Shown here in pieces: positions 18,654 through 46,232 of a DNA stretch of 64,000 nucleotides; position 1 is the stretch's first letter; every line of letters starts with the position of its first letter. Position numbers and translations under genes: made by a program. Below the pieces are notes generated by a model that searched no databases, had not been told where the DNA came from, and saw only the letters and a program-made list of their open reading frames with translations. This DNA is from Acanthopagrus schlegelii. Lineage: Eukaryota. The stretch spans positions 5,799,958 through 5,863,957 of the forward strand of contig CM085480.1 in assembly GCA_041753875.1 (NCBI GenBank), in the 5' to 3' direction.

Positions 18654-18747
18654 GTAAGAATGCTCACTCACACACATGGGTTGTGCATATTGATGTTGTG
18701 TATTATCCTGTGTTATGATCATGATATCATGTCCTCTCTGTGTTCAG

Positions 18748-18849
18748 GTCCCAGGAGCTCAGAGAGGAGGCTTCATGGAGCCGTGGTTCTCTGTCTGGGG
18801 CTGCTCAGTGTTGTCCTGCTGGTTGGACTCATCAGCCTCGGTGTCACCT
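18748..18849 (+). CDS. Gene C exon 2: TM anchor (GPRSSERRLHGAVVLCLGLLSVVLLVGLISLGVT)
   Basis: Same splice sites as B exon 2, 102 nt long. Confidence 0.8.
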
Positions 18850-19258
18850 GTGAGTCTGTTTTTCATCAGTCAGTGTCGGGTGAACTTGTGAGAGATACTC
18901 GTGTCTTTATGAATATGATTTTACAGCCATGGTAAATATATTCCAGCAGCTAATGCAGCAAAATGACATATTTGAACATCTGTGGATGATGAAGAGCTGA
19001 ACCATGTTTGAATTCAGGTGCAGGTTGCTCAGTATTTAGATATTTGCTGGGGAAACATCAGAGCATATTATTATAAAGACTGTACAACACTGTTTGGACT
19101 TCAAGTTCATTTCAGCCCTCAGGTTGATATTTCATAGACTGCATGAGCAGAATGAACATCTTCCTCTGTCAGGACAAATTAGGATGATTTTGACTCAAAT
19201 ATAGAACCTTTAGTCAGTATTGGTATCAGTGCATGAGTGAATCTTGATTTAATTTCAG

Positions 19259-19426
19259 ACTGGGATTTAGCTGCAGAACACTCCACTGTCAAAGCCAACC
19301 TGACGGAGCGTCTCCAGGCCAGTAATGACAAGCTGTCCTCTGTGTCTGAAGAGAGAGACCTGCTGAATGCCAACCTCACTTCAGTGTCCAAAGAGCTGGA
19401 CAGACTTCAGAGTTTGTCCAAACAGA
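19259..19426 (+). CDS. Gene C exon 3: neck, 14 aa longer than in gene B (...DKLSSVSEERDLLNANLTSVSKELDRLQSLSKQ)
   Basis: 168 nt long, which is 126 plus a 42-nt in-frame insertion duplicating two heptads. Same acceptor and donor as B exon 3. Confidence 0.8.
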
Positions 19427-20264
19427 GTGAGTGCTCGCCTGCCTGTGTGTGTTCTGCACAGCTGTCTGTTAACATGAAGGACAGGAGCTGCCACGGCCTC
19501 ATTTATAGAACACCTATATACAGAGACTGTGCTGATCAGACACTTGTATCCCACTCTCACTTCTGTAAATTACATTCATGTACCCATGACTTTATTCATT
19601 CTTTCAATTCATTCAAACAGGAATATATTTAAGTTAATGCACCTTTTTTACTTGGATAGTTTAATAGTTTCCATATCATATATTTTTTTTTAATATAACG
19701 CTATGTCTTCAGTGTGGCCACTGACTGTGACATGATCCTTCTTGAGTTTCACACTTGAAAGACTTTCAATTCCCTATAACATTGTGTGAACCACCCAATG
19801 AGAGTGCAGCCTTTTTAAGGGTGGAGTCCAATTTACAATATTTTCCCCCTCTTGAGACCTTTCCTTATTGCCTTACTTTTTGAGTTCATTGAGTTGGAAA
19901 TGATACTAATGAAATTATTGTGAGGGAGCACAAAAGTATTGCTTCTATTGAAGACCTGAGAGGCAAGTCATCCAAACAGTTAGGGAACTTCAAAAGATAA
20001 CCCCCCTGTAAATATTTTTTCCACCTTGTGTCATAAACATGACAGGGGAAACAATCTAGATTTTAAATAGTCTGTGAAATAGTAAGTGCTGTCAAGCAAT
20101 TTAGAAAATGATCTAATCAATTACAAGCTTTGTGATTAATTAAGCAAATCATGGGGTGTCTTGAGTTAGAGAAGACATCTTATACATCTCTCATCTATTT
20201 ATAGATGGAGCATTCAGCTAGAGTCATTTCCTTGTAATTGCTTGTCTAGCAGCAATACCAAATA

Positions 20265-23050
20265 AGAGTTTCGTTTTAATATTTCAACATAAAAGCCCAA
20301 AAAGCCATTCCAAATATAGTAACTAATTCTGAATAAATCTTACGCCAAAAGGCATTTACTTTTGGACAGGCCCAGAACAAGTGATAGTGGTTTGGCTTCC
20401 TGGGAGTACAAACACACTCTACAAACACTCCTAACCCTTCCAGCCAAACACCCTCCATGCAACTGAGCTCGATATCCTTCACTGAAATTCACAATATTCC
20501 TTCCAAACTTCTTATGAGATAAAACTGTTAGATTCCCTCTCCTATTTTTGTTTATATAGGTGGAGCTTGTTAACTTGATCTCTTGAAGAGCCCTGTATAG
20601 TCTTGAAATTACTTTAAGCCCTGAATCACTTTTACAGGCACTAATAAGAACTTTCAATATGCTATTTTCAAATGTCTTTTTGCATTACCTGTTTCCATTA
20701 AATTCTTAAGTCTTTTATACCCTAAGAAAGCCTGGATTGGAACAGCTCCTGACACCTTCTCTTCAATGTCTTTCCATCTTGCCGGTAATCATGATTGCAC
20801 CAACTATACAAAATGTTCAGTTGGGCTGAAATACAATATTCTTTCAGGCAGGGGAGTGTAAGTCCTCCATTGTTTTTCGTCAGTTGAAGTTGAAATCTTG
20901 GCCTTGTTTTTTTCCCCTTGCCAGATGTATCTAGATAGTAGTTTATCCCATTCATTGAACTGTCTATCTGTAATTTCAACTGGAACAGTCTGAAACAAAT
21001 ATAGCACCCTAGGTAATATAGTCATTTTTACCGACTCAATCCGTGACTCAAAACCTAATACTGGGATTAAATTCCACCTCCTTATGTCTTCCTTCATCTT
21101 TTGGCTGAACAAATCATAATCTAAATCATACAAATTGGTTAGCTATCTTGGTATGTTTACTCCCAAATATTTAATAGGATTGATATCCCAATTTAATCTG
21201 AACTTGGGGCTAATGATCTGCCTAGGTCTATAGTTGAAACTTAAAATTTGGGACTTTGAAATATTCAGTTTGTATCCTGATACCAAGCTAAAGGCATCCA
21301 AAAATGACAACAATTACAAGATTGGGTGCGACAAGTAGATAAAAACGTCAACTTAATGCCTCAATTAAAATTGCAAACAGTAACAGATTTAGTGGACAGC
21401 CCTGTCTAGTCCCTCTTTCTAGGCCAAATGACTTTGATACTTCTCTGTTTATTTTTACTCTTGCCTTTTGGTTATTATAGGCTTTAATAGTTTCAATAAA
21501 GGTCTTTTGAAATTCAAATTTTCCTAATACACTATATAAGAATTCCCAGCTGACGCTTGCCTGAAGTTTATTTTCTTAACATTATCTATTACATGTAACG
21601 TCCAGCGAATGTTATCTTGTGTCTGCCTTTGCTGGATAAAGCTTGTCTGGTCCAGACTTATTATCTGGGGGAGGTCTTTTTGCCAAAATGTGTGTAAAGA
21701 TTTTGTAATCCTGATGGAGCACACTCACTGGCCAATAACTTCCACACTCAGTTTTGTCTTTCCCCTCTTTTGGAGTCAGAGAAATCACTGCATCTCTAAA
21801 AGAAGGAGGAGTTATGCCAGTCCTAACAACATGGCTGTATGTGTCCTTCATGAATGGGGTCAGCAAATTAATTTTAATTTTAATTTCTTTGTACCACTCC
21901 GAAGGGAAACCATTGGGCCTTGCTGCCTTATTGTGTTTTAATTTGATATTGCCTTTTTAATTCCTTCATCGGTCATTTCTTTAGTTAAACCTTTATTTTG
22001 TTTGTCCCCCACTTTAGGTAGAGTTATCAGGTCTAAGAAAGCTTCCGTCTTTGTTTCATCTACTATAGATTGTGTATACAAGCTTTTATAAAAAGTTGCA
22101 AAAGATTGCTGTATATCTTTTTTATTATATTGAATGGAATATGTTTTAAGGTCCCTTATTTTATTAATTGTGTTTTCAGCCTCTTGCTTTTTTAATTTGT
22201 AAGCTAGCAGTTTAGCTGTTTTTCCCCCTGCTACATAGCACCTTTGTTGAAGGAAGATCATCTTTTTTTCAATGTCGTTTGAGTAGATTTCATTCAATTC
22301 ATTTTATTTTTGTCCATCTTTGTTTTTGTTGCTTGACTCATTGTATTTTTATGCATGTCCCAATTTTTCTACTGTTTTTTTTTTAGTAGCCTATAATCTC
22401 CCTCCCAAGAACCTCTTTGCAGGCATCCCGCAGAATAAGTGGGGACACTCCCCCCTTATCATTTTCGTCAATGTATTCTCATCCTTATTTGCCGTCTCCT
22501 TTGATTCAGGATCTCTATGTTTAATCTCCAAATAGTATCCTTTTTCCACGACTTAATATAAATCCATGACAACTGGGTCCCTATCCTGCAATCTATCGCT
22601 CTATATAAATCTTAATCGATAGAAGTTGAGCCTCGAGTAAACACTAGGTGGGCGTGAAAAAAAAAGAGTCCCTTTTTGTGGGGTTCAGATCTTACCAAAC
22701 ATCAGAGAGCCCCAGCTCCTCATCATTAATTTGATATTTTGGTAGTTTTTCTTCTTCCCTGAATAAAAATGTTTCGATGTGTCGAGAGTCTGGTGAAGTC
22801 TAACATTAAGGTCTCCACTACAGTTTATAATACCCTGAGCCTCAGAGCTGACCAACTCAAAAATTTGTTTTTTAAAATTTCCATTCAGATCCTGGGGGGG
22901 GGGCATAAACATCTATTAAAGTAGCCAGAACATCTTGCAGATATCCCCGGACTAATACAAATCTCCAAGTCTCTGTCTTTCTTTTCATATGTGCACTTAA
23001 AATGTGAAATGAATTAAAATTGTTACCACTCGTAGAACCCTGACTGCAGG
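20265..23050 (-). mobile_element. L1-like non-LTR retrotransposon (LINE) on the minus strand. It spans ORF2 from the C-terminal end of the endonuclease domain, through the RT, to the C-terminal zinc knuckle, with frameshifts.
   Basis: Minus-strand ORFs cover these parts in order. First, GDLNVRLHQTLDTS, the endonuclease C-terminus. Next, ISLTPKEGKDKTECGSYWPVSVLHQDYKIFTHILAKRLEKILPQIISLDQTGFIQQRQ, the RT. Then MTILPRVLYLFQTVPVE..YIWQGEKNKAKI, the thumb. Last, CTPRKPNHYHLFWACPKVNAFWRKIY, the C-terminal C2HC-like motif. Confidence 0.8.
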
Positions 23051-26000
23051 AGGATAAATATTGGTTAAATCCCCATCACTTGGGATGCAGTGGAGGAGTG
23101 CAGACTGTGTTGGTGAGCTCTCGGTGGTGGAACCTATCATCTGCTTTTATCCTGATTTAACCTCACACATCTTTGGTTTATCTGCAAGAGGTGAAGCCAA
23201 TAAGAGCACTTTTATATGGCAAGCTACAATTTTCAGCATACAAAGCGAAAGAAAGCTGCAACTCAAATTTCACGGTACCTGCATGCTGTAACCATAAGAA
23301 ACATGGCGGACGGGGAAAAAGAAATATCCTTCAGCAAATTTCTCGATGCTATTCAAGAAACTAAAAATGACCTCACAAAACATTTTGACAAGAAAACAGC
23401 ATACAAACAACGTTAACGAAAATCGAGTCCTCACTCTCTACGCTGGCGGAACATGTCAAGGAGATGCACACACGAGTGAGTACGACAACGAAGACGATAT
23501 CAAAGATACCCACGACCGTGTTGCTGAAATGGAGAAACTGATAACGCACCTCAAAGACAAAACTGACAATTTAGGAAACCGCAGCAGGAGGTCTAACATT
23601 GGATAGTAAATGTTCCGGAACAAGCAGTGGGTCGTCATACCATAGGATTTTTGAAAAGGTTTATACTGCAAGTCCTGGGTAACGATCACCTCACCTGTTA
23701 CACTGGAAAGAGCGCCCTGCATGGGGAAAAAGTTGGACAGACTGCAGCCCCTCATCACCAAATTCCTGAACTTCAGAAGTAAAGGAGAGATGACATGGAG
23801 AACAAAAGAATATTCTTTTACCCAGATTATAGCGCAAACCTGCAGCGTAGGAGAGACGTGAAGCGGACGCTGCGAGAGAAGGTGGTGGAATACGCTCTGA
23901 TCTACCCAGCCCAGCTTCACATCAAACATCTGGGAACCGTCAAGTTTTTTCTCCATTCCAGCCCAAGTGCAACGTTTTTTGAAAGAACTCCCAAGTGAGT
24001 AGCCTGACCAAAGTTACCGTTATAGACACTGATGAGGAAGAAAGGAGGAAAACAAAGGACTACAATCTGACTACACTACAAGACTTGGCTATGAAAAGGT
24101 ACAACATCAAATCTCTCCAACGTAGGAAGGCAAAACGGCTATGAAACAATATTACGCTAATATTACGCAGGCTAAGCTGTGAAAAATTAACAAACAAAAT
24201 ATCATTCCAATAGAGGAAAGAAAAGGCTATAAACTTAACTGCAAGACTGAGCTGCACTATAAAATGATTAACAAAAAATCACTCTCTAAGAGGCAAAAGA
24301 AAATACAGAATTACTGACAAGGAAAGACAAGGGTTGTGGTGAAAGTATATATACTATAAAATTAAAATACATGAGGGTGATGGGGAACAGGTGGACACAA
24401 TCAGGAATTGGGGAGACGTTCAGACTGGTGACACATGAGGAAGGGCAAGTGACCTGAAATGAGTTGCTTTTCAAAATAAAACAGGAAGTTCACGAGAAAA
24501 AAACAAAGACAAACCTCACCGCTGTGTGACACCCACAAGGCAAAACAAATTAGAAAGAGACTAACCAAATTGGAAAGAGATATTAAAAAGCAGGGAACAG
24601 GATTACATTGCCACCAAAAAGGAAGAACACCTTAATGCACTAACAAAAACAAGGATTCAATATAATAATGTACTAACAAAGAGGAAGCAGCTATGCCCAG
24701 CAATAGATATCACTATTATGAATTTGGGAACAAAACAAGTAAACTCTTGGCTTGGCAAATTAAAAAGGAAACACCTGATAACTGTAGACACTCAATATTA
24801 ACAGAGGGGGGCAGACTCCTTGATAATTCACTATCCATAAATGCAGAATTCAAACAATTTTACAAAGATTTATATAAAACTGGGCAGGATGCTGATAATA
24901 TTGGAGCAAAAAGGTTCATGGATGGAATAACCCTTCCCAAATTACAAGATGAGGGCAGAGATCTGCTTGATGCAGATATATCAGAAATGGATATACTCCA
25001 AGCAACAATCACACTGCTACCAAAACCGGGTAAGGACAAACAGAAATGTGACTCATACAGACTCCTCAGCCTCTTAAATGCAGATTATAAGATACAATCC
25101 AAACTAATTGCTCTAACACACGCTGACGAAACAGGCTTTGTTACAAACAGGCACGGAGCAGATATTGTGCAGCGACTGCTCCACATACTGAACACTGCTC
25201 AAAAAAAATCAAAATCCTATGCTAATAATGTCTATGGATCCAAAGCATTTGACAGGATTGGACCAAGCTTTCTATTTCAGACTCTAGAGGCTATGGGCTT
25301 TGGAGAGAAATTCACTCATTCACTCATTCACTCTGTTTAATGCCCCCAAAGCTAATATTTTAACAAATGACATTGTACCTATCACTTTCTCATTATCCAG
25401 AGGGTGCAGGTAAGGCTGTCCAAGCTCCCCCCTGCTCTTTGCACTTGCAATTGAACCGTTAACCATCGGCATCCACTCCAACACCCCCATAACCGGAATT
25501 TATTTGGCACAAATAAACATAAACTTTCTCTATATGCAGATGATCTCCTATTATATATAACTGATCCACACACATCAGTCCCCCCTTTTTTGGAATGCCT
25601 CAAAGAATATAGTGCAGTTTCAGGGTATAAATTCAATTACACTAATAGCGAGATTTAACCACTAAATATACAAGACAACAGTATTAGAGCTCTCACTGAC
25701 CCACTGAAATGGCGCAACATTGGTTTCAAATATTTGGGTATGATAATTGGTAAATTGCTTGAGCATATATTTAAAAAGAACTATATAAAATTATTGGAAC
25801 AAATCAAACTTAACCTTCAAAGACTGATTGATCTCCCACTGTCTCTCATAGGCAGAATTAATACTATAAAAATGAACATTTTGCCCAAGTTTATTTACCT
25901 ATTTCAGTGTCCCCCACTGAATGTTCCCAAGAGTTTCTTCAAAGAGCTTAACAAAATTATACTCCTTTTATATTGCAAAGGAAAAACCCAAAGTTTAAAC

Positions 26001-27065
26001 ACATCTCTCTACAGGCTTCATATTCAAGAGGAGGACTTAATCTACCAAATTTTAGGAATTATTATCTTGCTTCATAGTACCCATCAATCTGGATCTGGCT
26101 GCATGCAGAGAACAGTGAGGTTAGATGGGTCCCAATAGAACAACACAAGATGAAGTCTATGCCTCTAAAGGATATTCCATTCTTAGGTACAAAAAAATGT
26201 TTAGCCACACTCACGAACAATTCAATAATACTGAACACATTTTCTACTTGGCAATAATCTCACTCACTTCTTGACACAAATATTTCTTTTCTTGGAAGGG
26301 CCTCTTTGTGGGTAATCCCAACCTCTCACACCACATAGCTGAGTCAATGTTGCGGGGGTGGAGGGACATAGAAATCCAAACAGTTGCTGATTTATACATT
26401 AATGATTCATTTACTAATTTCCAAAAACTAAATGAAAATTTCAACCTTCCCAAAGTTAGTTTCTTCAAATTCCTACAAATTAGAGACTGGGTTAAGGAGA
26501 AATCCAAAGAAACATTCCCATATATCCCAAAAGAATCTCCTCTTGAAACCCACCTAACAAATTACACAGATCAACAAAAGGAAAAAAATATATATATGGT
26601 ATCATCAGTGGAAAGTTGCCTTTTTATGATAAAACATTTACAAAGGGGAAATGGGAAACAGACCTAGGCTGTATTAATGAGGAGGCAGACTGGCATCATC
26701 TATTGGAACAGGCACAGACTGTACTAACCTCCACAAAACACAGGCAAATTCAATTCAAAATATTCCATAGGCCATACTACACCTCTTACAGTTTACATAT
26801 TCATTTGTGTATGTTTCTATTGTAAAATCCAACTTTCAGTGTATCAAACTGTAGATGCTTGCTATACACCATAAACATCAGCTCTTCTGGAGCTACTGTT
26901 GATCAAAACAAATCTTACAAAAAAAAAAATCTCCATCACTTAAGTTTTTCGTGTTCTGATTCTGTTAAATGGGCCTCTGGTAAGAAAGCTACGTCCACCC
27001 CCTCCCTCTTCAATTTTGTCATAACCTTGCTCCTTCTGATGGGATTTTCAAACCATTGACATTGT
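23050..27065 (+). mobile_element. Second L1-like LINE on the plus strand. It has a 5'UTR and a disrupted ORF1 from ATG 23303. Its ORF2 lacks most of the endonuclease but retains the RT.
   Basis: ORF1-like sequence includes ...NRSRRSNI.. and YPAQLHIKHLGTVKFF, which resemble the L1 ORF1p RRNNIRIIG and CTD motifs. ORF2 RT sequence includes ITLLPKPGKDKQKCDSYRLLSLLNADYKIQSKLIA..DETGFV and [34 protein letters not shown], and it also carries a thumb region and a C-terminal region. Confidence 0.8.
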
Positions 27066-28300
27066 ACGTGATTATTTTAGTTGACTTCATACCTTACATT
27101 TAGTTTTGTTGTTTTAAGCCCCTGTACGCCTGTAACTGAGTCATATCTTACACCCCTGGTGCTGTAAAGAATGATACCACAAACCATAAGGGAAACAAAA
27201 CTGTTAACCTGCATCACATCACAATCAATAACATCGTCATCCAAAATTAAGGCCTCTTTGATGGCCTCCTGGCTCTGATGGAATGTGAGTCCGACCACAA
27301 AACCTGTCCTCCATAAGCCCTTACTCTCATCTTGCTGATGCAATCAATGTCATGTACAGGAATATGTTTGATACTAGAATGTCCAAAAAATTATTCACTG
27401 CACTGTAAAAGATAACTAAAGAATGCTATAACTATATGAATGTCATTTTTGAATTTGATTGATCTTGGCGGGGCATCCATCGGAGGATTTGAGGCGAGTG
27501 CCCGGTGCGCTCTCTTGATAATTAGCGCTGCAGAGGGAGGGAGCTCCTGGCCCTTCAACAGTAAATCTTCCACCAAAGTAATCACCGATGTCATGTTTTC
27601 TTCAGCTCCTTCTTTTACCCCATGTATTCTGACATTGTCATGAAATGAGGACCCCTGTATATCAGTCAACTTAGCCTCCGTTTGTACATGAAGCGTCACC
27701 AGCTCCGATAAAACATCCTCTGCTGACTGGATTCAGGTCTCGGCTGCTTTGATTCGTTTCTCTGCTTCTTCCATAATGTTACGACCCTCTAAAAAAAAGA
27801 CAGCTCGTCCACAGAAGGCCCCACATAATTAATCAGTCAGGAAAATCCCAATAATTGACCACTTTATTTATAGTGCAAGCCACATTCCTTCCTCTTTTAA
27901 GTCTTCCCCTCAATTATCAAATAAGGGCCACCTGGGAGAAAGCACAACACAACAAACAAAATGGTCAACAGAATCTCTGGTTATACCTTTCCCATCCAGC
28001 AGGGGGGGAGTATGTAAATGTTGTTGTCAGTATCCTCTCGCATGCTGTTTACTTAGCAGTCCTTCCTGAATTCTCTTAGTTCTTTCAGTATTACATCCAG
28101 CCTTTCGTGTTTGTCCCGACTCTGCGTCGGTCTGCATACTGGTCTCCATCCTGCTAATGCTGCTAACTTGCAGCGGATGACCTTCTCTTCGTCATCGTGT
28201 TTCTTACTTTGTGCAAGTATTTTCTTCCCCTTTCTGATGGGCATGCTCTATCAAATGTTTTTTGTTGTTGTTGACTATACTGCAGTTTTTATTCATGCTT
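27066..28300 (-). mobile_element. L1-like ORF1 region (coiled-coil plus RRM-like/CTD) on the minus strand. It is probably the 5' portion of the minus-strand LINE at 20265-23050, split by the plus-strand LINE.
   Basis: Minus-strand ORFs read NVRIHGVKEGAEENMTSVITLVEDLL..IKRAHRALASNPP..PRSIKFKNDIHIVIAF and FVVGLTFHQSQEAIKEALILDDDV. These match L1 ORF1p conserved blocks. Confidence 0.6.
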
Positions 28301-28371
28301 GTCGTTTATTGATTGTTTTTGTACTTGTAAGGCAACCTTGAGTGCCATGACAGGCACCATCAAATAAAATG

Positions 28372-28379
28372 TATTATTA

Positions 28380-28413
<34 letters not shown>

Positions 28414-28414
28414 C
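28372..28414. repeat. (ATT)n microsatellite
   Basis: Direct reading. The copy-2 counterpart is at about 60437-60467. Confidence 0.9.
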
Positions 28415-28829
28415 ATAGTCATTCGCCCATTAAAACTCAGCTTGCTTTGACATTACTTTAATAAATTTGAGTTTATCAGACGTTTTTGAAATATTGCTGT
28501 AGGGAGCCTGCTGCCTAAGCTGCCATTATGTCACCCGCAAGAACGGAAGTCCTCAGCATAAAGATTTAACAATGTGCAAATATTGAGAGGAGATCAATAG
28601 CTTCAGTTTCTAAGATTGAAGTTATTGTCATTGAAAAATATTTTGACTTTGATGAGTTATTTTGTTCCGTTCTTATTTAAGTAAATATAAATATATAGTG
28701 AATATCAATTAGCACATCAGTTAACAACATTTTCATCCAAAGAACATGCATTTAATCCACAACCTCCCAAGCTGGACAACATGGACGTTGTCTGATTTTG
28801 AATGTTACTTTTTTTGATGCTTTTTCTAG

Positions 28830-28972
28830 AGAGAACTTGTCCTGCAGGATGGAAGATGTTCAGTTGCACCTGCTATCTCTTCTCTGCAAAGACTGATTCT
28901 TGGGAAAATGGCAGACAAGACTGCAGAGACAGAGGAGCAGAGCTGGTGACCATTGACACTGATGAAAAACAG
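28830..28972 (+). CDS. Gene C exon 4: CRD exon 1 (N/K)RTCPAGWKMFSCTCYLFSAKTDSWENGRQDCRDRGAELVTIDTDEKQ
   Basis: Acceptor tttctag|AG and donor aacag|GTAGTG. It is 143 nt long. The flanking intron sequence is homologous to gene B at 8200-8350. Confidence 0.8.
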
Positions 28973-29249
28973 GTAGTGAGGAGTTTTTCTTTATATTGCT
29001 TAGATTGTGGAGTCCCCTGAGACAAATGTTTGATGTGAATAAAACTGACCCCTGCATGCCTTCTTACCTTCCTAAATACTTTATGTGCACCTCAGTTTTT
29101 GCCCCCCATAAAAGTAAGGGAACAAATTACTGAGAGGCAGAAAGATCACACGACATTAATCAGAAACAAAGCCCAGCAAACCTGGCAGGAGTTCATCCAC
29201 TTGACAAAACACAGATAGGCGAGAGTGTGATGGTCAGTCCATGCGAGGA

Positions 29250-30300
29250 CATTATTCCTCCTGACTCTGGGAGAAGATGAGAATATGATCTAAATAAGTG
29301 AACACAAACCAGTTGTCACTGAGAACATCGTTGACCAAGGCCTGGAAGACAACAGGGGAATTGGTGGGACCAAAAGTCATGACTTGGTACTCTAAATGGC
29401 CGAGAGGATCGTCTACTAATTTCCTTCTCGTATGTGCACCCACTGATAAGCATTTCCAGGATGGCAGCCTGGTGGAGAGGTCCAAACGCTGAGTTGATGA
29501 TAGGGAGGGGGTATTTGTTTTTGACTGTTGTTTCATTCATACCTTTGTAGTCGATGGCCTTATAGATCCATCTTTTTTTAGCCACAACAAAAAAGGAAGA
29601 GTGGTGAATGAGTCTGGTGGGTATGTAAGCTGGTGATATGAGTCTCCTTTGCATCTTGTTTAGGGCGGGTAAGGTTGTAAAGACAGCTTGTAGGAAGAGT
29701 GGCACCAGGAAGTAGGTCAATCTAAGAGTTATATGGTCTGTGAGAGTGCATGGCCCTTGCTAAATATGTCGCTAGGGTTGTGATAGTTGGAGGGAACAGA
29801 GGAAAGGTCATTGTGTTCAGGGGTGGCAGGAGTGGAGTGGTAGCAGGAGGGGGCAGCAGAGTGAAGGCATGGGAATGACGAAATACACTCCATGTGATGA
29901 TTCTTGAAGCTGACCAATCAATATGGGTGTTGTGCATCTAAAGCCACAGGAGACCTAAGACAACTGGGGAGTGAGGTGAAGGGCTTACAACAAAATGTAT
30001 TGTCTCTCTATGAAAATGGAAAGAATGGAAAGAAGGAGAGTGGGTGGAACAGTACAATGAGTGATTTGAGCAGGTAATCTACCACCAAGTGCAAAAACAA
30101 AACCTTGGGAGAAGGAAGAGTCTCAGTGGGAATGTTAGCTTGGCAGACAAAGTCAGAGTCAATTACGTTATTGTCAGTACCCGAGTCAGTCAGTACCTGA
30201 AGTGGGAGAGTCTGTAGCTTGAGGCGAGAGGGCATAGAGGAGGTAGGAGTCAATCGGCTCATCAGCGCCCCGCTGTTGTGTGATGACACTGGTCTTTTAT
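29250..30300 (-). mobile_element. Ty3/gypsy-type LTR-retrotransposon pol fragment with aspartic protease plus the N-terminal RT. It is truncated after YLDHILIFS and carries frameshifts.
   Basis: Minus-strand ORFs read VLTDSGTDNNVIDSDFV, the protease D-S/T-G motif. They also read [66 protein letters not shown], the RT with a YxDD-like box. Confidence 0.8.
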
Positions 30301-31314
30301 GCAGCTATGCGCAGAGGAAGATGGCATGAATCAATCAAATTCCTTTATTGTCCCGCATGGCGCATGGCGCATGGCGTCGGTGTTCGGTCTCCGCTTGGTA
30401 ACAGATTGTTAATGTGGGGTTGAACCCAGAGGCAGTAGGACAGTTCAAAGTCAACATTCTCATGGCCTAGTTCATGAGCCATGAACAAAACAAGAGAGAC
30501 ACAAGGTGTAAACTGCAAAACTGAACCAAGTTATTAGCAAAGTAACCAAACGATACTTAAAGTCCTGATCTGACCTGAACAGGCCGACGCCAACTAAACA
30601 AAAAAAGGTGCTCCCAGGGGTGTTGATTATCACACCAGGAACCTGCAGGACAACAGACAAACATGAGGGAAAACACACACACCCACACACAGCAGGCCCT
30701 GCTAAAGCATGCGGGCCATCACACCATAAGGAATGGAACAAGCTGGCACAGGAGCAGTGAAGAGACAGGGTTAATACAGCAGGGGTTGATGAGATGATGA
30801 CATGCAGGCGTGTCCCTCAGCTGCAGCAGGCACAAGTCAGTGGACACAGACTCACACTAGGGAGGAGCAGGTGATGGAGGAAGGAGGGGGAGCAAACAGA
30901 TGTTATCAAATAACTAGCCCACATGGTAATCGTATGACTTCAGACTAACCAGAACGAAGCATTTTACGACACTCTGTTATACACGTTACTATACATTGAT
31001 CAATGTAAAAAGTTGTAAAATGAGAGTTAGAATAGTTTGTCACTAAATACGGATTGGTGATAAAAGTGTCTCCGTGTTCGATGTGATGAAGTTTGGTTTC
31101 ATTTGGTCTCATTTGGACACTTGTTAGCAACTGACTTTCTAAGACATGTAAACACTTATAAATCAAATGTAAAGTAAAAATATTTATTATATTCTGTTGT
31201 ACTCATAAAAGTTTGAAGTGAATGTTACTGTACTGTTCAGATGAATCCATATTAAATTTGATATGGTTCAGAATTAAATAGAAACAATGGCTTTATTTCC
31301 TTTACCTTGAACAG

Positions 31315-31421
31315 GAGTTAATCTCTAAATTCATCAAGGAAGATACTTGGATTGGTTTGAATGACAAAGACGAGGAGGGGACCTGGAGATGGATAGATGG
31401 AACTCCATCACCGACTGTGGT
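31315..31421 (+). CDS. Gene C exon 5: CRD exon 2 ELISKFIKEDTWIGLNDKDEEGTWRWIDGTPSPTV(V)
   Basis: Acceptor gaacag|GAGTTA and donor gtggt|GTAAGG. It is 107 nt long, one codon more than in gene B. Confidence 0.8.
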
Positions 31422-31532
31422 GTAAGGCAAAGAGAAGATGTTCAACACCTGATTTCAATATAGACACATATACAATGTTTGAATAATAGTTATCAGAATC
31501 AGACTGACTCACTTCCTTTAATAACCTCCTAG

Positions 31533-31690
31533 GTACTGGTTGGAAACACAGCCTGATAATGGTGGTGGAGACGCAAAGTGGGGCGAAGAGGACTGTATAC
31601 ACCTCGTATTTGGTGTGAATGTAAAAAAAAAACTGGAATGATGTGCGGTGTGATAAGCCTTTGAAGTGGATCTGTGCCAAAATGCCTTAG
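31533..31690 (+). pseudogene. Gene C exon 6, frameshifted. It reads YWLETQPDNGGGDAKWGEEDCIHLVFGVNVKKK then shifts to a premature TGA at 31639-31641. The homologous stop is at 31688-31690.
   Basis: At 31621-31633 the sequence is GT followed by 10 A's then CTGG. The intact copy at 63730-63745 reads gtcaaaaaaaactgg. One extra A plus a C-to-A change shifts the frame. This removes the WND motif and the last conserved Cys residues. Confidence 0.7.
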
Positions 31691-31726
31691 TATTTACATG
31701 AGCTTTGAAACAAAGCATTTATGAAT

Positions 31727-31728
<2 letters not shown>

Positions 31729-31792
<64 letters not shown>
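31729..31792. repeat. (GA)32 microsatellite in the gene C 3'UTR
   Basis: Direct reading. Confidence 0.95.
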
Positions 31793-31797
<5 letters not shown>

Positions 31798-35600: not shown

Positions 35601-36571
35601 CCCCACTGCTCTGAAGACTTGCTTAGATACAATGCTGGTGGTCATATTGCCATGTATTTTCTGGTAACCTTTGCAAGTAGGTACATCGGGTATCTGGACC
35701 GGTTGTTGTTGCACCAAGCAAGAAGATGTGAAGTCCAGGGCTTCCTTGAGCACAGAGTCTTGGGGATGGGTTTTAACTGGGTCTGGTCTCTTGTTTTGCT
35801 GAGGAGGTGGGCCAGCTTCTTTTTCTTGTCTCTGTCTGTTGAAGCACTGGGTCTTGGCTGCACAGCTCCATCGTCCTGCTCATCGAAATTCTTTCCCTCG
35901 TCATCAAGCTCATAGCCAAACAGGAAAAAAAGACATCTCAGGGTTTTTTTGTAGGTTGAAGCCAACAGGTGCACAGTGCGTCGTTCTGGATGGCACGTTC
36001 TCCGATCAGGAAGTTAAACTGCCTCTGTGTCACTGTGTCAAACATGCATGGTGTGAAGAAAAGAGGGGGTGTGACTTGACTGTGTCACCATGGTAATGCA
36101 GTAACAGCGGCAGGCCTGCTAAAAAACACTTGCATTTTGTAGTAGAATAAGAGTGAGAATACAACAAACATTATAATGTATATATCATATATCATATATA
36201 ATATTATATAATTAATAAATATTCATTCATTCATCAGGAAAAGGGATCTCTGATGGATTCTGGTGGTTCACCACACATTTATTCACTCCTGTTTTGAGTT
36301 AGTTTAAAGTCAACAATCCAATGCAATAGTCCATTTATTTTTTAGAAAAGTGCCAATTGAAAAGGACCACAGACTTATTTGGACATGTTTGTGTACCATT
36401 ACACAGATTTGGAACTTAAAGATATTGAGTTGGTGGTTTATGTTTCCTGTGCAAGCTATTTTGTCACCTCTAAAAACTGATGACTTCCTGAAAACCGTGA
36501 GAGATGTTGAATCCACCATCATCATATACATGCGCTGACCGTTCAGGAGACAGCCGGTTACCTTTTGAGCG

Positions 36572-36641
36572 ATGGAGGAGATCTATGCAAATGTTGATTA
36601 CAACAAGCCTGTCGACCCAACACCTTCAACAAATCAGACAG
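36572..36641 (+). CDS. Gene D exon 1: the duplicate of gene B in copy 2 of the duplicated segment
   Basis: Same sequence and splice sites as 4503-4572, offset about 32068. Confidence 0.75.
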
Positions 36642-36735
36642 GTAAGAATGCTCACACACACACATGGGTTGTGCATATTGATGTTGTGTATTATCCTGTG
36701 TTATGATCATGATATCATGTCCTCTCTGTGTTCAG

Positions 36736-36837
36736 GTCCCAGGAGCTCAGAGAGGAGGCTTCATGGAGCCGTGGTTCTCTGTCTGGGGCTGCTCAGTGTT
36801 GTCCTGCTGGTTGGACTCATCAGCCTCGGTGTCACCT
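36736..36837 (+). CDS. Gene D exon 2: TM anchor
   Basis: Homolog of 4667-4768. Confidence 0.8.
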
Positions 36838-37246
36838 GTGAGTCTGTTTTTCATCAGTCAGTGTCGGGTGAACTTGTGAGAGATGCTCGTGTCTTTATGA
36901 ATATGATTTTACAGCCATGGTAAATATATTCCAGCAGCTAACGCAGCAAAATGACATATTTGAACATCTGTGGATGATGAAGAGCTGAACCATGTTTGAA
37001 TTCAGGTGCAGGTTGCTCAGTATTTAGATATTTGCTGGGGAAACATCAGAGCATATTATTATAAAGACTGTACATCACTGTTTGGACTTCAAGTTCATTT
37101 CAGCCCTCAGGTTGATATTTCATAGACTGCATGAGCAGAATGAACATCTTCCTCTGTCAGGACAAATTAGGATGATTTTGACTCAAATATAGAACCTTTA
37201 GTCAGTATTGGTATCAATGCATGAGTGAATCTTGATTTAATTTCAG

Positions 37247-37372
37247 ACTGGGATTTAGCTGCAGAACACTCCACTGTCAAAGCCAACCTGACGGAGCGTC
37301 TCCAGGCCAGTAATGACAAGCTGTCCTCAGTATCCAAAGAGCTGGACAGACTTCAGAGTTTGTCCAAACAGA
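37247..37372 (+). CDS. Gene D exon 3: neck, 126-nt form
   Basis: Homolog of 5179-5304, reading DWD where B reads DRD. Confidence 0.8.
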
Positions 37373-40300
37373 GTGAGTGCTCGCCTGCCTGTGTGTGTTC
37401 TGCACAGCTGTCTGTTAACATGAAGGACAGGAGCTGCCACGGCCTCATTTATAGAACACCTATATACAGAGACTGTGCTGATCAGACACTCTCACTTCTG
37501 TCAGTTACATTTATGGCCGGTTTGACTTGTACCAATAACTTTATTCATTTTTTAATTCCTTCAAGCAGGAATATATATATAAGTTAAAGCACCTTTTTAC
37601 TTGGATATCTTAACAAGTTCCAGATTATAGTGTTTTTTTTAATGCTATGTCTTCAGTGTGGCCACTGACTCTGTGACAGGATCCTTCCTCAGCTTCACAC
37701 TTTCACTTCCCTATAAGGTTGTGAACCACCTAATGAAAGTGCAGCCTTTTCTAGGGTGGAATACAATATTTTTCGCTCTTTGAAGATTGTTCCTTTTTGT
37801 CGAGCAATTAAAAAAAATGATCTTGTCAATTACAAGCTTTGTGATTAATTAATCAAAATCAATCACATATGGAGCCGATATTTTAACCTTCAGTCCTCCG
37901 GTTGTATACAAATTCATAATTGCACAAAACATTGCTCCTGTAAATAGTTCCATGGGCATTTTAATGCAGCACCACTCCATTGTGGTTTGGTATTAATATC
38001 CATGCTAAACTTTTCAAATGCATTCATTCCTGTAGTAGTCTATTCTTTATAGTACATACATTCTAAATGTCTATTTTTATTCCAGTGTCATAAAGAGGCC
38101 GTCTTTGTAGCAGGAATATTGGTCAGGTCGAAGCATTTATGTGTGCAGCGTTTGAGTCCGGGACAAATTTCATCAGGGGGGACAGCAGAGTGTATTGTCA
38201 TCTTCATTGACATCATTCAGCAGGAAAATTATTCTTGAAATTAAACGTGCAAATAACAACAGAAACAGCTGACAGGCCCTTAAACAAAAAGTGAAGACAT
38301 AAATTAAAGCGGACATCTGCTGCGACAATTTCTTATATACAGGCCACTCATTTAAAGAAAAAAATGAAATAATAGATGTCTACCAAACTGAGATAAAAGC
38401 AGTCCATGGTTATGTTTTCTAACTTTAGCCGCTATATACATGTAATAAACATGCAAATGAATAGAACACTCTTTTAAAGGTCCCATATTATACTGTTTTT
38501 CATGTATTTCACACAGCTGTCAGAGGTCCAACAACACTGTATTCGATATGCATTGCCCCAAACCATCCATAGTCCTGAATTTCAGCTGTCTAAAAGTCCC
38601 TCAATTGAGCTCTACTGAATGCAGGCTGTTCAGGCTGCAGGCTAATGAGCTCTGTCTTGCCTGTTACACACCCCTCTCCGGGGGAGGATGACGCTTGCGC
38701 TACCGGTAGCATGCACTTGTGTTTTGCAGTGGATGTATGGCTATGGCTCGCGGTGATGCTTTTGTTCAACCATACCAGTTTGACCCAGAACTGGACCCAG
38801 AAGGAGAGGCTCCTGAGGAAGTACAGACCTTGTGGCTGCAGCAGGATGTTTCAGAATGGTTAGTGTGTCTGAATGATGTTAGTTTGTTCATATGTATTAC
38901 AATTACTGCCATGTAGCTAATGGCTAACAGCTAGTGAAAGCTGTGTTTGTCTCCAACACAGTCTCTAAACTCTTGGACACTGTTAGCATCGTCTCTGTCT
39001 CCAGTCTGCACGTTTCCAGATTTTTTACTGTGACAACCAAGCTCCATCATAAAATGATTAATATTAAACTCACTTGAAACACAATTGCATTGTGGACCAA
39101 AGCAGAGCTAACTATTAACTAACCAAGTTCCAGCTGACCTCACCACTCGTAGGTAACTGTAAATACTATCAAACCGCAGCGACACTTACCTGTGGCTCAG
39201 GTGCAGTTGCTGGGTCCGGTATGGTTGGGACTGATCTTTGTGCGAGGGTCAGTGTCGAGGCAAAGCCAGCTTTGTACTGACACTCGTTACTGAAGCTGTC
39301 TGATGTTAAGTGGTTAGCACACACACACAAACTAACACAACCCGTAGCCGGCACGTTGTCGTTAAAAAATGAAACGCAACCACTGTCTCCTCTGTTGTTC
39401 TGTAGCTGGGACAGAATATAGGCACTGATGTTGATTTTTACAACCAACAATAGAGTAATTTGCGTGTCTAACTCTGAGCGACGACATTGCTAAACATTGC
39501 TATCTTACAGCTGGACACACAGAACTTCACCTTGGGGATGGACGCCCCCCTCTCGGATATCTACTATCATTGTGCAGAGGAAGCCTGTCTATGTAAATGG
39601 CTACTTTCATTACGTAATGAAAGGAGCTGAATCTCAACAGACTGTAGGAGCGCTGTTTTACCAGTGGGTGGGCTGCAGAGACCATGCAGGAATCTGGTTT
39701 TACCAGTGGGTGGGCTGCAGAGACCATGCAGGACTCGTTTGCTTTCCTCATTCTGGGAGTTGGCAGGCTCAGGGAGGACCAGCTTATATATGTAGACACC
39801 AGAGAAAATGTGTTTTTCATAATATGGGACCTTTAAATGAACGTCAGGCCACTTCTTTGCATTTCAAAGTCACATGCGTAAAATAAAGTTGGATTCTGGA
39901 GGTTCCCCACACATTCATTCACTCCTGTTTTGAGGTAGTTTAAAGTCAATGATCCAACATGAAATAATCCATTCATTCCTCCTAAAATCAAATCTATATC
40001 ATCCAACTATTTCAAGGTTTTAGGTTTTATTTTTCGTATTCATTTTTACCTTTGAAGGTGTTAGTTAAGGTTTGGGTTTTTAGGAAGAAAGAAAACAGCC
40101 TTGTAGAATGAACATGTTTTTACAGTTCAAACGGGGAAAGAGGTGGGACCAACTCTTCAACACATCTTAATGACGTAACAATGCGCAAATCTTCAGTAGA
40201 GATCAATACCTTCCATTTCAAAGATTTAAAGGTTTTTGTTACATAAAAAAGATTCTGATTTTGATGAGTTATTTTGTTCCATTATGATTAAAGCAAATAT

Positions 40301-40437
40301 AAATTAGTAGTGAATATCAGTTTGAACATCAGATAACAACAGTTTCATCCAAAGAACATACACTTAATCCACAACCTCCCAAGCTGAGCAACATGGACCT
40401 TGTCTGATCTTTAACGTCACTTTGATGCTTTTTCCAG

Positions 40438-40580
40438 AGAGAACTTGTCCTGCAGGATGGCAGATGTTCAGTTGCACCTGCTATCTCTTCTCCACTAAGA
40501 CTGATTCTTGGGAAAATGGCAGACAAGACTGCAGAGACAGAGGAGCAGAGCTGGTGACCATTGACACTGATGAAGAACAG
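40438..40580 (+). CDS. Gene D exon 4: CRD exon 1
   Basis: Identical to 8370-8512. Confidence 0.85.
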
Positions 40581-42735
40581 GTAGTGAGGAGTTTTTCCTT
40601 ACAGAGCCTCGATAGATTGTAAAGTCCTCTGAGACAAATTTGTGACTTGTAAATAAAATTGACTCCTACATGCCTTCTTACCTTCCTACATACTTTATGC
40701 GCACCTCCGTTTTTGCCCCCCAAAAAAGTAAAGGAACAAATTACTGAGAGACAGAGAGATCACACAACATTAATCAGAAACAGTCAGCGAGCCTGGCAGG
40801 AGTTGAGCCACTTGACAGAACGCACAAAAGTGAGATTCTTATGGTGAGTGCACATGAGGACAAGATGGGCAGCTCCCTCCAGCCAATGTCTCTGTTCTTG
40901 GAGGGCGAAAACAACGGCCCTTTGCCAATGTTGCAGGGGTCATGAGAGGAAAGCACAGGCAGGAAGCTTTTGTTCATTGCTGTGACAGGACGGCTCCTGC
41001 TCCGGTGTCAGAGGAGTCAACCTCTGGATCCAAATATTGATACCAACGTTGGTGTTGACTTTGCTCCTCCTACCCCCTCTTCTGTTTTGATGTTCTGTAC
41101 TGTCACATGACTCAGCAGCACTAGGCAAACAAGCAGACAGAGCAGAAGAATGGCAGAGAGGAAGAGGAGCACCACGTGGCTATATTTTCAGGCCGTAAAT
41201 GAAGCAACTGCAAGCTGTATAATTTGCAAAAAGGCTGTAAGATAAAGTAGTAACACAAGAAGGGCTACAGAAACAGAGCCCAGGCCCCCGACCCAGAGGC
41301 AGAGGTCATTGGCAGAGGCCTTTCAGTCTGGCAGAGAATATAGTGGTGAAAGTAGTATTTTAGTCATCTTTGGGATTAGTTAATATTAATTTTCAAAGTG
41401 AAACTGGTCTGGTCTTGTATAAATTATGCTAAGACCTTGATATAATAGATTTATCCCATTAAAACACATTTAAATGAATACATTTACTGGAATTGAAACA
41501 AATATAGTGAATATAATATGAGTCAGATTTGATTGAGTAAAATTTGCCTTTTGTGTTAACTGTGTATGCTTACTATAATCAAACTTCAAGTGGATGTTTT
41601 TCACACTTTATTATTTTATCATTTCACTTAGCTGATTCCCCAAGAGTTTCCGAACACTCTCCCTACAAAAAATAACACACAGAGGAGCCTGCTGTGCACG
41701 AGCAGACTTGTAACCACGGTAACGGAGGATGCCAGATAACCAAGATGTCACATTCAAATAACAACAACTTAATCCCTGATTGTTCTATTTCTAGTACCAC
41801 TAAATTTAAATGACGAGTGCCTCATGCAGATCACTGTAGTAACCCGAGTAACAAACAATATTCCTCACATTGCGGTAGACAGAGTTACCATGAAATCATT
41901 ATCCAGTGCAATGTGGAAATGTTAATTCTTTAAACCAATTCAACCACTTCAGAGCGTCCTGAACACAAACTAATGTTATAACCACCCAGTCACTTGAAAG
42001 GCACTTTTGCTAACCAGTAGCCATAAAGACAGAGCTAAACACTGGAGTTAGTATACAAGCTAACAAGTTAGATTTACCATCAAGCTACGGAGCTCGACTG
42101 CAACAGGGGTCCTTACTTGTCCAGCAGAAAAGCCACTAACTCTGCGTTGCTCTTGAGCCCTTACAAATCCCACAGTTCCCTCCACCTCTGAAATGACGCT
42201 CCGATATTTATCCTTGTTTTCTCTGTGGCTCAGTCCAATTCTGTCCTTTTACACTGCTTTTCTTCCTCAGTCTTCTCATTTCTTCTCTTTGACATGGGCA
42301 GTGGTGGGGCATTGTTCAGCTCTGTTGTTGTTGTCTGTTCTCCACCATTATTTACAGTTTAGGCTTGAACTTATCTGACCAGGGTGAGAGCAGGCATGGT
42401 GCCTGCTTGGGGGAGGGGTACTGCCCAGTACATGCTGCATGAGGGAGGGGGGCTGCCAGCAGCATGCACATGAGTGATTGATACTTCTCAGCCACTCCCC
42501 TTAGCTGTGATTGGTTGTACTGAGCCATAGCACAATATAACATCTGCAAATCAAATTGAGGCCACTGGGTGGAGCCACAGACAGTGGATTTTTGCACAGC
42601 TGACCTGTATCTTATTCAGGTGCTCATAAAAGTTTGATATGCATGTTATTGTATTGCTCAGATGAATCCCTATTAAATGTAATATGGTTCAGAATTAACT
42701 GGAAATAATGGCTTTTTTTCCTTTACTTCGGACAG

Positions 42736-42839
42736 GAATTCATCTCTAAAATCATCAAGGAAGATACTTGGATTGGTTTGAATGACAGAGACAAGGAGGG
42801 GACCTGGAGATGGATAGATGGAACTCCGCCAACTGTGGT
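42736..42839 (+). CDS. Gene D exon 5: CRD exon 2
   Basis: Homolog of 10668-10771. Confidence 0.85.
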
Positions 42840-42943
42840 GTAAGGCAAACAGTAGCAGACTCTACATTACTAGAGTCATTTCTGTCTGATTGAACAATTG
42901 TTATCAGAATCCGACTGACTCACTTCCTTTAATAACCTCCTAG

Positions 42944-43100
42944 GTACTGGTTTGAAACACAGCCTGATAATGGTGGTGGAAACCCAAAGTGGGGCGAAGA
43001 GGACTGTATACACCTCATATTTGGTGAGAATGCCAAAAGGAACTGGAATGATCTGCGATGTGACAAGTCTCTGAAGTGGATCTGTGCCAAAATGCCTTAG
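42944..43100 (+). CDS. Gene D exon 6: CRD exon 3 with QPD and WND, stop TAG at 43098-43100
   Basis: Homolog of 10876-11032. Confidence 0.85.

Positions 43101-45821: not shown

Positions 45822-46232
<411 letters not shown>

What the first reader, a model, noticed from the sequence alone, without database searches (positions are those of the whole stretch)
31615..31645. Homopolymer frameshift truncates gene C but not its duplicate gene E
Gene C's last exon has GT + A10 + CTGG at 31621-31636, where gene E has GTC + A8 + CTGG at 63730-63745. The extra A gives ...NVKKK-L-E-stop, with TGA at 31639-31641. This removes the WND motif and the two C-terminal cysteines that close the CRD disulfides. Either one duplicate is becoming a pseudogene soon after duplication, or there is a homopolymer sequencing error in one copy.
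Basis: seen in the sequence. Interest (0 to 1): 0.6.

Follow-up and report, generated by a model that had tools for sequence, protein, structure and literature searches.

The report
One-base frameshift in duplicated fish lectin gene
One copy of a recently duplicated sea-bream immune lectin gene carries a single extra A in a run of A's that cuts off the end of its sugar-binding domain; this is an ordinary young null allele or pseudogene, or else a one-base assembly error, and only raw reads can tell which.

Summary
Gene C (18584-31690, six exons) has GT+A10+CTGG at 31621-31636 and a premature TGA at 31639-31641. The window is a tandem array of CLEC4E/CD209-like type II C-type lectin genes from Acanthopagrus schlegelii, built from two ~28-kb units that differ at 1.45% of bases. 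The extra A replaces the last 19 residues with K-L-E. That removes two core beta-strands, the WND motif and both C-terminal cysteines, which include 6 of the 23 residues invariant in 65 homologues. Nothing else is wrong with gene C: all splice sites are canonical. Deleting one A gives a 248-aa protein identical to KAM8749963.1, an intact array member in the published T2T assembly. That annotation has no gene model at C's position. Long homopolymers are the most changeable sites here (9 of 16 runs of 8 or more differ between the units), while short runs show no assembly noise. My estimate is about 0.58 for a real, very young and possibly polymorphic frameshift in a redundant array, and about 0.32 for a consensus error. 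Reads are needed to decide. Interest is low.

The parts
31623..31632 (+). A10 homopolymer in the last exon of gene C. One A too many relative to the reading frame (the in-frame state would be GTA+A8 = A9, or GTC+A8 as in gene E).
31639..31641 (+). Premature TGA created by the +1 shift. The product is 232 aa ending KKKLE.
31688..31690 (+). Original TAG stop of gene C, reached only if one A is removed. The downstream reading frame NWNDVRCDKPLKWICAKMP* is fully intact.
18584..31690 (+). Gene C, a CLEC4E/CD209-like type II C-type lectin. Exons are 18584-18653, 18748-18849, 19259-19426, 28830-28972, 31315-31421 and 31533-31690. All introns are GT..AG.
50700..63808 (+). Gene E, the intact tandem duplicate of C (248 aa). 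Exons are 50700-50769, 50864-50965, 51375-51542, 60854-60996, 63434-63540 and 63652-63808. Its GTC+A8+CTGG is at 63740-63754.
4503..11032 (+). Gene B, a 233-aa paralogue with a shorter neck and no A-run. Its protein is identical to KAM8749959.1.
36572..43100 (+). Gene D, the duplicate of B. Its protein is identical to KAM8749960.1 and KAM8749964.1.
474..630 (+). Last exon of gene A (EPN-type lectin). It is identical to the C-terminus of KAM8749958.1 and lies outside the duplicated unit, so it anchors the window at the start of the array.
4152..31793 (+). Tandem duplication unit 1 (genes B and C).
36253..63911 (+). Tandem duplication unit 2 (genes D and E). It differs from unit 1 by 401 mismatches in 27,618 aligned bases (1.45%) and 68 gap events.

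Best explanation
Gene C is a structurally complete, very recently duplicated member of a tandem array of galactose-type (QPD...WND) CLEC4E/CD209-like type II membrane lectins in the black porgy Acanthopagrus schlegelii. A synonymous GTC>GTA change lengthened a Lys-Lys-Asn A8 run to A9. Replication slippage then added one A (A10). The +1 shift in the last coding exon replaces residues 230-248 with K-L-E-stop. This is shown. It removes strands beta4 and beta5, the WND calcium and sugar ligands, and the cysteines that pair with C145 and C218. Those partners follow from the canonical C-type lectin disulfide pattern. The following steps are inferred. The stop lies in the last exon, so the mRNA should escape nonsense-mediated decay. 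It would then make a membrane-anchored protein with a normal tail, transmembrane helix and neck but an unfoldable lectin domain, which is in effect a null copy. Loss of one copy is tolerated because several near-identical intact copies exist, as expected under birth-and-death evolution of immune lectin arrays. The allele may still be polymorphic.
For: The frameshift and its translation are confirmed.

The lost segment holds invariant W231, N232, D233, C236, W242 and C244. It also holds the strands E231-234 and E240-246 of a confident model, with pLDDT 93 and 90 for the last two 10-residue blocks. That model superposes on the Mincle, DC-SIGN and MGL lectin domains, with TM-score 0.90 and rmsd 1.8 A to 4kzv. 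Pfam coverage drops to positions 2-80 of 107.

The assembly consensus looks clean. In the 7.8-kb B/D segment, none of 122 homopolymer runs of 4 or more differs in length between the two separately assembled copies. The ratio of 1-bp indels to substitutions between units is 19:401, which looks natural.

Long runs really are mutable here: 9 of 16 runs of 8 or more differ between units, against 8 of 155 runs of 5-7. An A9 run is therefore the expected first site of a disabling lesion.

The T2T GenBank annotation numbers the array genes consecutively. KAM8749958 matches the part of gene A that lies in the window, KAM8749959 is B and KAM8749960 is D. There is no model where C lies, although four other C/E-type copies (61, 63, 65, 66) are annotated. 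Redundancy is shown by those copies.
Against: No reads could be inspected. Apart from the extra A, gene C has no other defect, and its restored translation is 100% identical over 248 aa to the intact KAM8749963.1. That is exactly what a one-base consensus error would also look like. A missing gene model in the T2T annotation is weak evidence, because a 232-aa truncated ORF could still have been called and the same annotation contains a chimeric model (KAM8749966.1). I could not establish which assembly the window comes from. Gene E's exact protein is absent from the collection, differing by 3 aa from KAM8749961.1 and 1 aa from KAM8749965.1. The sequencing technology behind this exact sequence is therefore unknown.
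Confidence: 0.58

Rival explanations
1. Assembly or consensus error. The true sequence of gene C is GTA+A8 (an A9 run) and is in frame. One extra A was introduced by long-read homopolymer miscalling, or by polishing with multi-mapping short reads in a 98.5%-identical tandem repeat. On this reading gene C is a normal functional lectin gene.
For: The lesion sits in the longest coding homopolymer. Removing a single A restores a full-length ORF with no other defect, identical to an annotated intact protein of the same species. The region is a tandem repeat whose ~28-kb units recur every ~32 kb, which I expect to exceed typical HiFi read lengths (the read-length comparison is my own knowledge). The only published long-read assembly used hifiasm with HiFi and ONT reads plus short-read polishing (PMC11868651). 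Homopolymer indels are the dominant residual error class of such assemblies (my own knowledge).
Against: The two copies of the 7.8-kb B/D segment show no homopolymer length disagreement in 122 runs. The indel spectrum between units looks biological. The T2T assembly reports QV 52.95 after k-mer-aware polishing (PMC11868651, abstract and validation). That implies well under 1% error per long run if the window is from that assembly. The T2T annotation lacks a gene at this position, whereas an intact gene would probably have been called like its four siblings.
Confidence: 0.32
2. Mosaic or mis-resolved array. The window's B-C-D-E block is a collapsed or haplotype-mixed consensus of two ~64-kb super-units (or two haplotypes) of the array, and the A-run length is a by-product of mixing copies with different run lengths.
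For: Proteins in the window match T2T proteins in a mosaic way. B equals 59 and C equals 63. D equals both 60 and 64. E has the exon-1 residue of 61 (G6) but the last exon of 65 and 66. The T2T order 59-60-61 and 62-63-64-65 looks like two super-units differing by only a few residues. B/D divergence (0.43% in introns) is below the reported heterozygosity of 0.59%.
Against: The two units within the window are cleanly distinct (401 fixed differences) with no sign of ambiguous consensus. Gene conversion and unequal crossing-over between individuals explain the same mosaic without any error. An out-of-frame run would still have to exist in some real copy.
Confidence: 0.07
3. Functional recoding. 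The A10 tract is kept out of frame and partly rescued by RNA polymerase II slippage or ribosomal frameshifting on the A-run, which gives adjustable low-level expression of the full-length lectin.
For: A runs of 9 or more are known slippage sites in bacteria, viruses and endosymbionts (my own knowledge). The downstream frame is perfectly preserved.
Against: All other C/E-type copies, namely E, KAM8749961, 63, 65 and 66, are in frame. The out-of-frame state is therefore not conserved. Perfect preservation of the downstream frame is equally expected from a very young lesion. No stimulatory element was sought or found.
Confidence: 0.02

Closest known systems
Group II type II transmembrane C-type lectin receptors (Mincle/CLEC4E, DC-SIGN/CD209, MGL/CLEC10A, ASGR1/2)
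   Same: The intact copy has a short cytoplasmic tail, one transmembrane helix and a long helical neck (H34-114), followed by a long-form lectin domain with six cysteines. Pfam Lectin_C is matched over positions 2-107 of 107. PDB sequence hits have E about 1e-24 to Mincle and 1e-20 to DC-SIGN and MGL. The predicted fold superposes on Mincle 4kzv at TM-score 0.90 and rmsd 1.8 A. The sources name the proteins 'C-type lectin domain family 4 member E-like' or 'CD209 antigen-like'.
   Different: The sugar motif is QPD...WND, the galactose type seen in MGL and ASGR. Mincle and DC-SIGN have the EPN mannose or glucose type. Identity to any solved structure is only 30-38%, so the names are homology labels and not orthology. 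Gene C as written lacks the last quarter of the domain.
Non-processed (duplicated) pseudogenes and null alleles caused by homopolymer slippage in tandem immune-gene arrays (birth-and-death evolution)
   Same: It is a recent tandem duplicate with introns, splice sites and flanks retained. It has a single frameshift at a mononucleotide run, and several intact paralogues sit nearby.
   Different: There is no second lesion and no evidence yet of relaxed constraint specific to C. Its protein is identical to an intact copy. The germline reality of the lesion is unverified.
Homopolymer indel errors in long-read genome assemblies (the cause of many 'LOW QUALITY PROTEIN' frameshift annotations)
   Same: It is a single-base length change in a run of 9 or more that breaks an otherwise perfect ORF inside a near-identical repeat.
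   Different: Elsewhere in the window the paired copies show no homopolymer noise. The published assembly of this species is HiFi-based and polished, with QV 52.95.

Membership tests
C-type lectin-like domain, long form (Pfam PF00059; group II receptor type) | Full-length match to the Lectin_C profile | tested here: met
   Gene E matches positions 2-107 of 107 with E = 4e-21. Gene C as written matches only 2-80 of 107. The gene family is met, but the C product is a truncated member.
C-type lectin-like domain, long form (Pfam PF00059; group II receptor type) | Six conserved cysteines forming three disulfides. Canonical pairing gives C117-C128, C145-C244 and C218-C236. | tested here: not met
   Gene E and the restored C have all six. 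C117, C218, C236 and C244 are invariant, and C128 and C145 are at least 90% conserved in 65 homologues. The C product as written lacks C236 and C244. The pairing is taken from established knowledge and was not measured here.
C-type lectin-like domain, long form (Pfam PF00059; group II receptor type) | Calcium site 2 and sugar-binding motifs (EPN or QPD, plus WND) | tested here: not met
   QPD at 203-205 is present in both C and E. WND at 231-233 is present in E but deleted from the C product.
C-type lectin-like domain, long form (Pfam PF00059; group II receptor type) | Type II topology with an N-terminal tail, a transmembrane helix and a helical neck | tested here: met
   There is a hydrophobic stretch AVVLCLGLLSVVLLVGLISLGV, and the AlphaFold model has a continuous helix over 34-114. 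The fold matches a DC-SIGNR fragment containing the lectin domain and two neck repeats (1sl6).
Duplicated (non-processed) pseudogene or null allele | A disabling lesion in a gene copy that retains its exon-intron structure | tested here: met
   There is a +1 frameshift with a premature stop. Six exons have canonical GT..AG borders at the positions found in E.
Duplicated (non-processed) pseudogene or null allele | The lesion is present in germline DNA rather than only in the assembly consensus | not testable with these tools
   No reads are available. The A. schlegelii assembly is not in the contig index. A metagenome scan gave 0 hits and exact ORF look-ups found nothing.
Duplicated (non-processed) pseudogene or null allele | Relaxed constraint or further decay | tested here: inconclusive
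   For restored C against E, dN is 0.019 and dS is 0.025, from 11 non-synonymous and 4 synonymous differences. However, C's residues are shared with the intact KAM8749963.1, so these differences are paralogue diversification and not decay of C.
Assembly homopolymer error | Removing or adding one base of the run restores a conserved full-length ORF | tested here: met
   Deleting one A gives a 248-aa protein identical to KAM8749963.1.
Assembly homopolymer error | General homopolymer noise in the same assembly region | tested here: not met
   None of 122 runs of 4 or more differs in length between the B and D copies over 7.8 kb. Runs of 5-7 differ in 8 of 155 cases across the whole unit, no more than the 1.45% substitution rate alone predicts.
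Programmed slippage or recoding site | The out-of-frame configuration is conserved among paralogues or orthologues | tested here: not met
   Gene E, KAM8749961, 63, 65 and 66, and the closest seabream (sparid) homologues, all read ...KKNWND... or an equivalent in frame.

The most novel reading that the evidence does not exclude
The A10 tract acts as a vertebrate analogue of a contingency locus. Slippage at the run, in the germline between A9 and A10 or during transcription, switches or tunes expression of one member of a copy-number-variable lectin array. The truncated product shares an identical transmembrane segment and neck with its paralogues, so it could act as a dominant-negative partner in mixed oligomers.
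Probability: 0.03. Interest if true: 0.55.

Novelty: new member of a known kind. Interest (0 to 1): 0.12.

Why it matters
The main value is for annotation. This array member is missing from the deposited protein set of the species. Anyone counting lectin copies, or studying expansion of galactose-type CLEC4-like receptors in seabreams (family Sparidae), needs to know whether this copy is a null allele or an assembly error. If the lesion is real, it is a neat snapshot of the first step of gene death in a young tandem array, made more likely by a synonymous change that lengthened a homopolymer. It does not open any long-standing question.

Tried and rejected
1. I tried to fetch the A. schlegelii chromosome around KAM8749962 (P0001) and around gene D's product, to read the A-run in the other array copies. 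Neither product is on record in the contig index.

2. I ran exact look-ups of the truncated 232-aa C protein, an exon 1-5 read-through model, and the short sense and antisense ORFs that a prokaryotic gene caller would make over the A9, A10 and E versions of the last exon. None is in the 15-billion-protein collection. No independent read-derived contig could therefore be found.

3. I scanned JGI metagenome contigs with a pattern that accepts C+A8, A9 and A10. It gave 0 hits.

4. The first homology search, using E's lectin domain, missed the near-identical KAM8749961/63/65 cluster entirely. Absence from that tool's output is not evidence of absence.

5. A search with gene A's last exon returned only host-derived contigs in ENA metagenomes. 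They are A. latus-like and match window 1-2843 at 96.9%. They were useful only as a divergence yardstick.

6. I considered whether the 32-kb duplication itself is an assembly artefact. I rejected this as the main reading, because the independent T2T annotation lists at least nine consecutive array genes with distinct sequences.

7. I considered rescue by an alternative splice site or a downstream frame. The frame after the A-run stops after two further codons (L, E), and no other exon-6-like sequence exists in 31.7-36.5 kb.

I used KAM8749965.1 (P0045) instead, which differs from E by one residue.

Full report
**The observation.** Reading the two sites directly and by regex confirms GT+A10+CTGG at 31621-31636, with the run at 31623-31632 and an in-frame TGA at 31639-31641. 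Relative to E, gene C has a synonymous GTC>GTA change plus one extra A.

**What the window is.** The window has 40% G+C and no ambiguous bases. A self-comparison shows two tandem units, 4152-31793 and 36253-63911, at 97.5-99% identity. A global alignment gives 401 mismatches in 27,618 aligned bases (1.45%) and 68 gap events, 19 of them 1 bp long.

The lectin domain of E hits fish proteins named 'C-type lectin domain family 4 member E-like' and 'CD209 antigen-like'. The best hit is from Acanthopagrus schlegelii.

Mapping that protein back to the window and reading the exon borders gives four complete six-exon genes, all with GT..AG introns:
- B at 4503-11032
- C at 18584-31690
- D at 36572-43100
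- E at 50700-63808

The last exon of a fifth gene, A, lies at 474-630.

B and D are 233 aa. C and E are 248 aa and carry an extra 14-residue neck segment. B is identical to KAM8749959.1 and D is identical to KAM8749960.1 and KAM8749964.1. Gene A's last exon is identical to the C-terminus of KAM8749958.1. These proteins lie on a 32,371,919-bp contig, which is the length of Chr9 in the telomere-to-telomere assembly JBGQWW (PMC11868651).

**What the frameshift does.** The spliced C coding sequence is 748 nt. It translates normally through residue 229 and then reads K-L-E-stop, giving 232 aa.
- Pfam Lectin_C covers profile positions 2-107 of 107 in E but only 2-80 in C.
- In an alignment of 65 homologues, 23 columns are invariant. 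Six of them (W231, N232, D233, C236, W242, C244) lie in the lost segment 230-248.
- An AlphaFold model of the near-identical KAM8749965.1 has mean pLDDT 79 and about 80-97 across the lectin domain. It places strands 231-234 and 240-246 in the lost segment.
- The model superposes on the Mincle, DC-SIGN(R), MGL and ASGR lectin domains, with TM-score 0.90 and rmsd 1.8 A to 4kzv. Sequence matches to the same families have E = 1e-17 to 1e-24.

From the established disulfide pattern of long-form C-type lectin domains, C244 pairs with C145 and C236 pairs with C218. The C product would therefore keep two unpaired cysteines and lack the WND calcium and sugar ligands. Because the stop is in the last exon, I infer that the mRNA escapes nonsense-mediated decay and that a misfolded, membrane-anchored product is made. 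This was not tested.

**Is gene C otherwise decaying? No.** Splice sites are intact, and the reading frame after the run is fully preserved. Deleting one A gives a 248-aa protein that is, residue for residue, KAM8749963.1, an annotated intact gene of the same array in the T2T assembly.

The 11 non-synonymous and 4 synonymous differences between C and E (dN 0.019, dS 0.025) are therefore differences between two functional paralogue types, not decay. They cluster in the lectin-domain exons. The last exon has 7 differences in 157 nt, and exon 4 has 5 in 143, against 1.25% in the introns. Several are next to the QPD motif and in the loop at 209-211.

**How old is the duplication?** Divergence between the units is uneven. 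It is about 0.4% across B/D, 0.9% in the B-C intergenic region and 1.25% in the C/E introns. Host-derived contigs in ENA metagenomes encode an A. latus-type gene A. They differ from window 1-2843 by 2.2% mismatches, for 96.9% identity including gaps. The duplication is therefore younger than that species split, or it has been homogenised since.

**Real lesion or assembly error?** No reads were accessible. The contig index does not hold this genome. Exact look-ups of every ORF version I could construct failed. A metagenome scan found nothing.

The indirect evidence is as follows.
- **(a) Mutability of long runs.** Long homopolymers are the most mutable sites here. Nine of 16 runs of 8 or more differ between the units, against 8 of 155 runs of 5-7. 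An A9 run created by the GTC>GTA change is where a first disabling mutation would be expected, but it is also where an error would fall.
- **(b) Consensus quality.** The consensus is not noisy. Over the 7.8-kb B/D segment, none of 122 runs of 4 or more differs in length between two copies that were clearly assembled separately, since they differ at about 0.4% of bases. The ratio of 1-bp indels to substitutions (19:401) looks biological.
- **(c) Quality of the published assembly.** The only gap-free assembly known for the species was built from HiFi and ONT reads with hifiasm. It was polished with short reads and reports QV 52.95 (PMC11868651; PMC13091521).
- **(d) The T2T annotation.** In that annotation the accessions run 58 (A), 59 (B), 60 (D), 61, 62, 63, 64, 65, 66. 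There is no model where C lies, although four other C/E-type genes are annotated. This fits a defective C in that sequence too. It is weak evidence, because a truncated ORF could still have been called and KAM8749966.1 is an obviously chimeric model.

Against a real lesion stands the complete absence of any second defect, together with identity to an intact copy. That is just what a one-base error would leave.

One inconsistency remains unexplained. E's exact protein is not in the collection. It differs from KAM8749961.1, which is positionally expected, at three residues that are all in exon 6. It differs from KAM8749965.1 at one residue. The window is therefore either not the deposited T2T sequence, or the array differs between individuals or haplotypes, or it is partly mosaic.

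**Verdict.** I put about 0.58 on a genuine, very young and possibly segregating slippage frameshift that nullifies one redundant array member. I put about 0.32 on a one-base consensus error, about 0.07 on a mosaic or haplotype-mixing artefact, and about 0.02 on functional slippage rescue. All other C/E-type copies are in frame, which argues against any conserved recoding. Either main outcome is ordinary: a young pseudogene in an immune lectin array, or a homopolymer indel in an assembly. Interest is low. The practical value is flagging an unannotated array member and a site that needs read-level confirmation.

Noticed in passing
window 4152-31793 vs 36253-63911: Divergence between the two tandem units is very uneven. 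It is about 0.3-0.5% over the B/D genes (5.1-12 kb) but 1.2-2% over the C/E genes (20-31.8 kb). This suggests gene conversion or homogenisation of the B/D part, or a two-step history. The T2T accession order (59-61, then 62-65) hints at a higher-order ~64-kb duplication.
   Followed up: partly
window 31533-31690 vs 63652-63808 (last exons), codons 202 and 209-211: Amino-acid differences between C and E cluster beside the QPD motif and in the following loop (T/K at 202, GDA/RSQ at 209-211). The last exon differs at 7 of 157 nt, against 1.25% in the introns. A third variant (T, RSR, A225) occurs in KAM8749961.1. This could be diversifying selection or patchy gene conversion in the sugar-binding loop.
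   Followed up: partly
window 31730-31793 and 63848-63981: A (GA)n microsatellite begins about 40 bp after the stop codon of C and of E, with 32 repeats in C and 67 in E. It coincides with the distal boundary of the duplicated unit, because the flanks diverge immediately after it.
   Followed up: no
window 19259-19426 / 51375-51542 vs 5179-5304 / 37247-37372 (exon 3): C and E carry a 14-residue neck insertion (SVSEERD[L/Q]LNANLT) that is absent from B and D. It looks like a duplicated neck repeat. The GenBank model KAM8749966.1 contains the whole exon-3 segment twice and looks like a chimeric fusion of two neighbouring array members.
   Followed up: partly
window 19427-28829 and 51543-60853 (intron 3 of C and E): Intron 3 is about 9.4 kb in C and E against about 3 kb in B and D. 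It contains a decayed reverse-transcriptase ORF (24693-25340 and 56805-57452; Pfam RVT_1, E = 1.6e-8) and other broken ORFs.
   Followed up: partly
window 18516-18935, 36504-36923, 50632-51051: A 139-aa ORF stays open from upstream of the ATG through intron 1 into exon 2, in exon 2's frame, in genes C, D and E. UniRef models of Sparus aurata (A0A671Z3S2, A0A671Z3L8) start with a near-identical peptide (MQMLITTSLSTQHLQQIRQVRMLTHTHGLCILMLCII, then RGYDHD where the window reads LCYDHD). It may be an intron-retention isoform with an alternative cytoplasmic tail or a recurrent mis-annotation.
   Followed up: no
window 13763-14142 and 45820-46276: There are AT-rich, TA-dinucleotide-rich blocks that match themselves and each other in both orientations, which makes them palindromic low-complexity repeats. 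They lie in the B-C and D-E intergenic regions, and most large alignment gaps between the units fall around them.
   Followed up: no
L001 (ERZ13706759 NODE_49004), L002, L003 vs window 1-2843: ENA metagenome assemblies contain fish-host contigs that are 96.9-98% identical to the gene A region. They encode the A. latus version of the last exon, so they are host contamination in what are presumably gut metagenomes.
   Followed up: partly
window 474-630 vs the B-E last exons: Gene A has an EPN (mannose-type) motif, whereas B, C, D and E have QPD (galactose-type). The duplicated part of the array is therefore specifically the galactose-type lineage. No A. latus QPD-type protein appeared among the 120 best matches listed, so the expansion may be specific to A. 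schlegelii.
   Followed up: no
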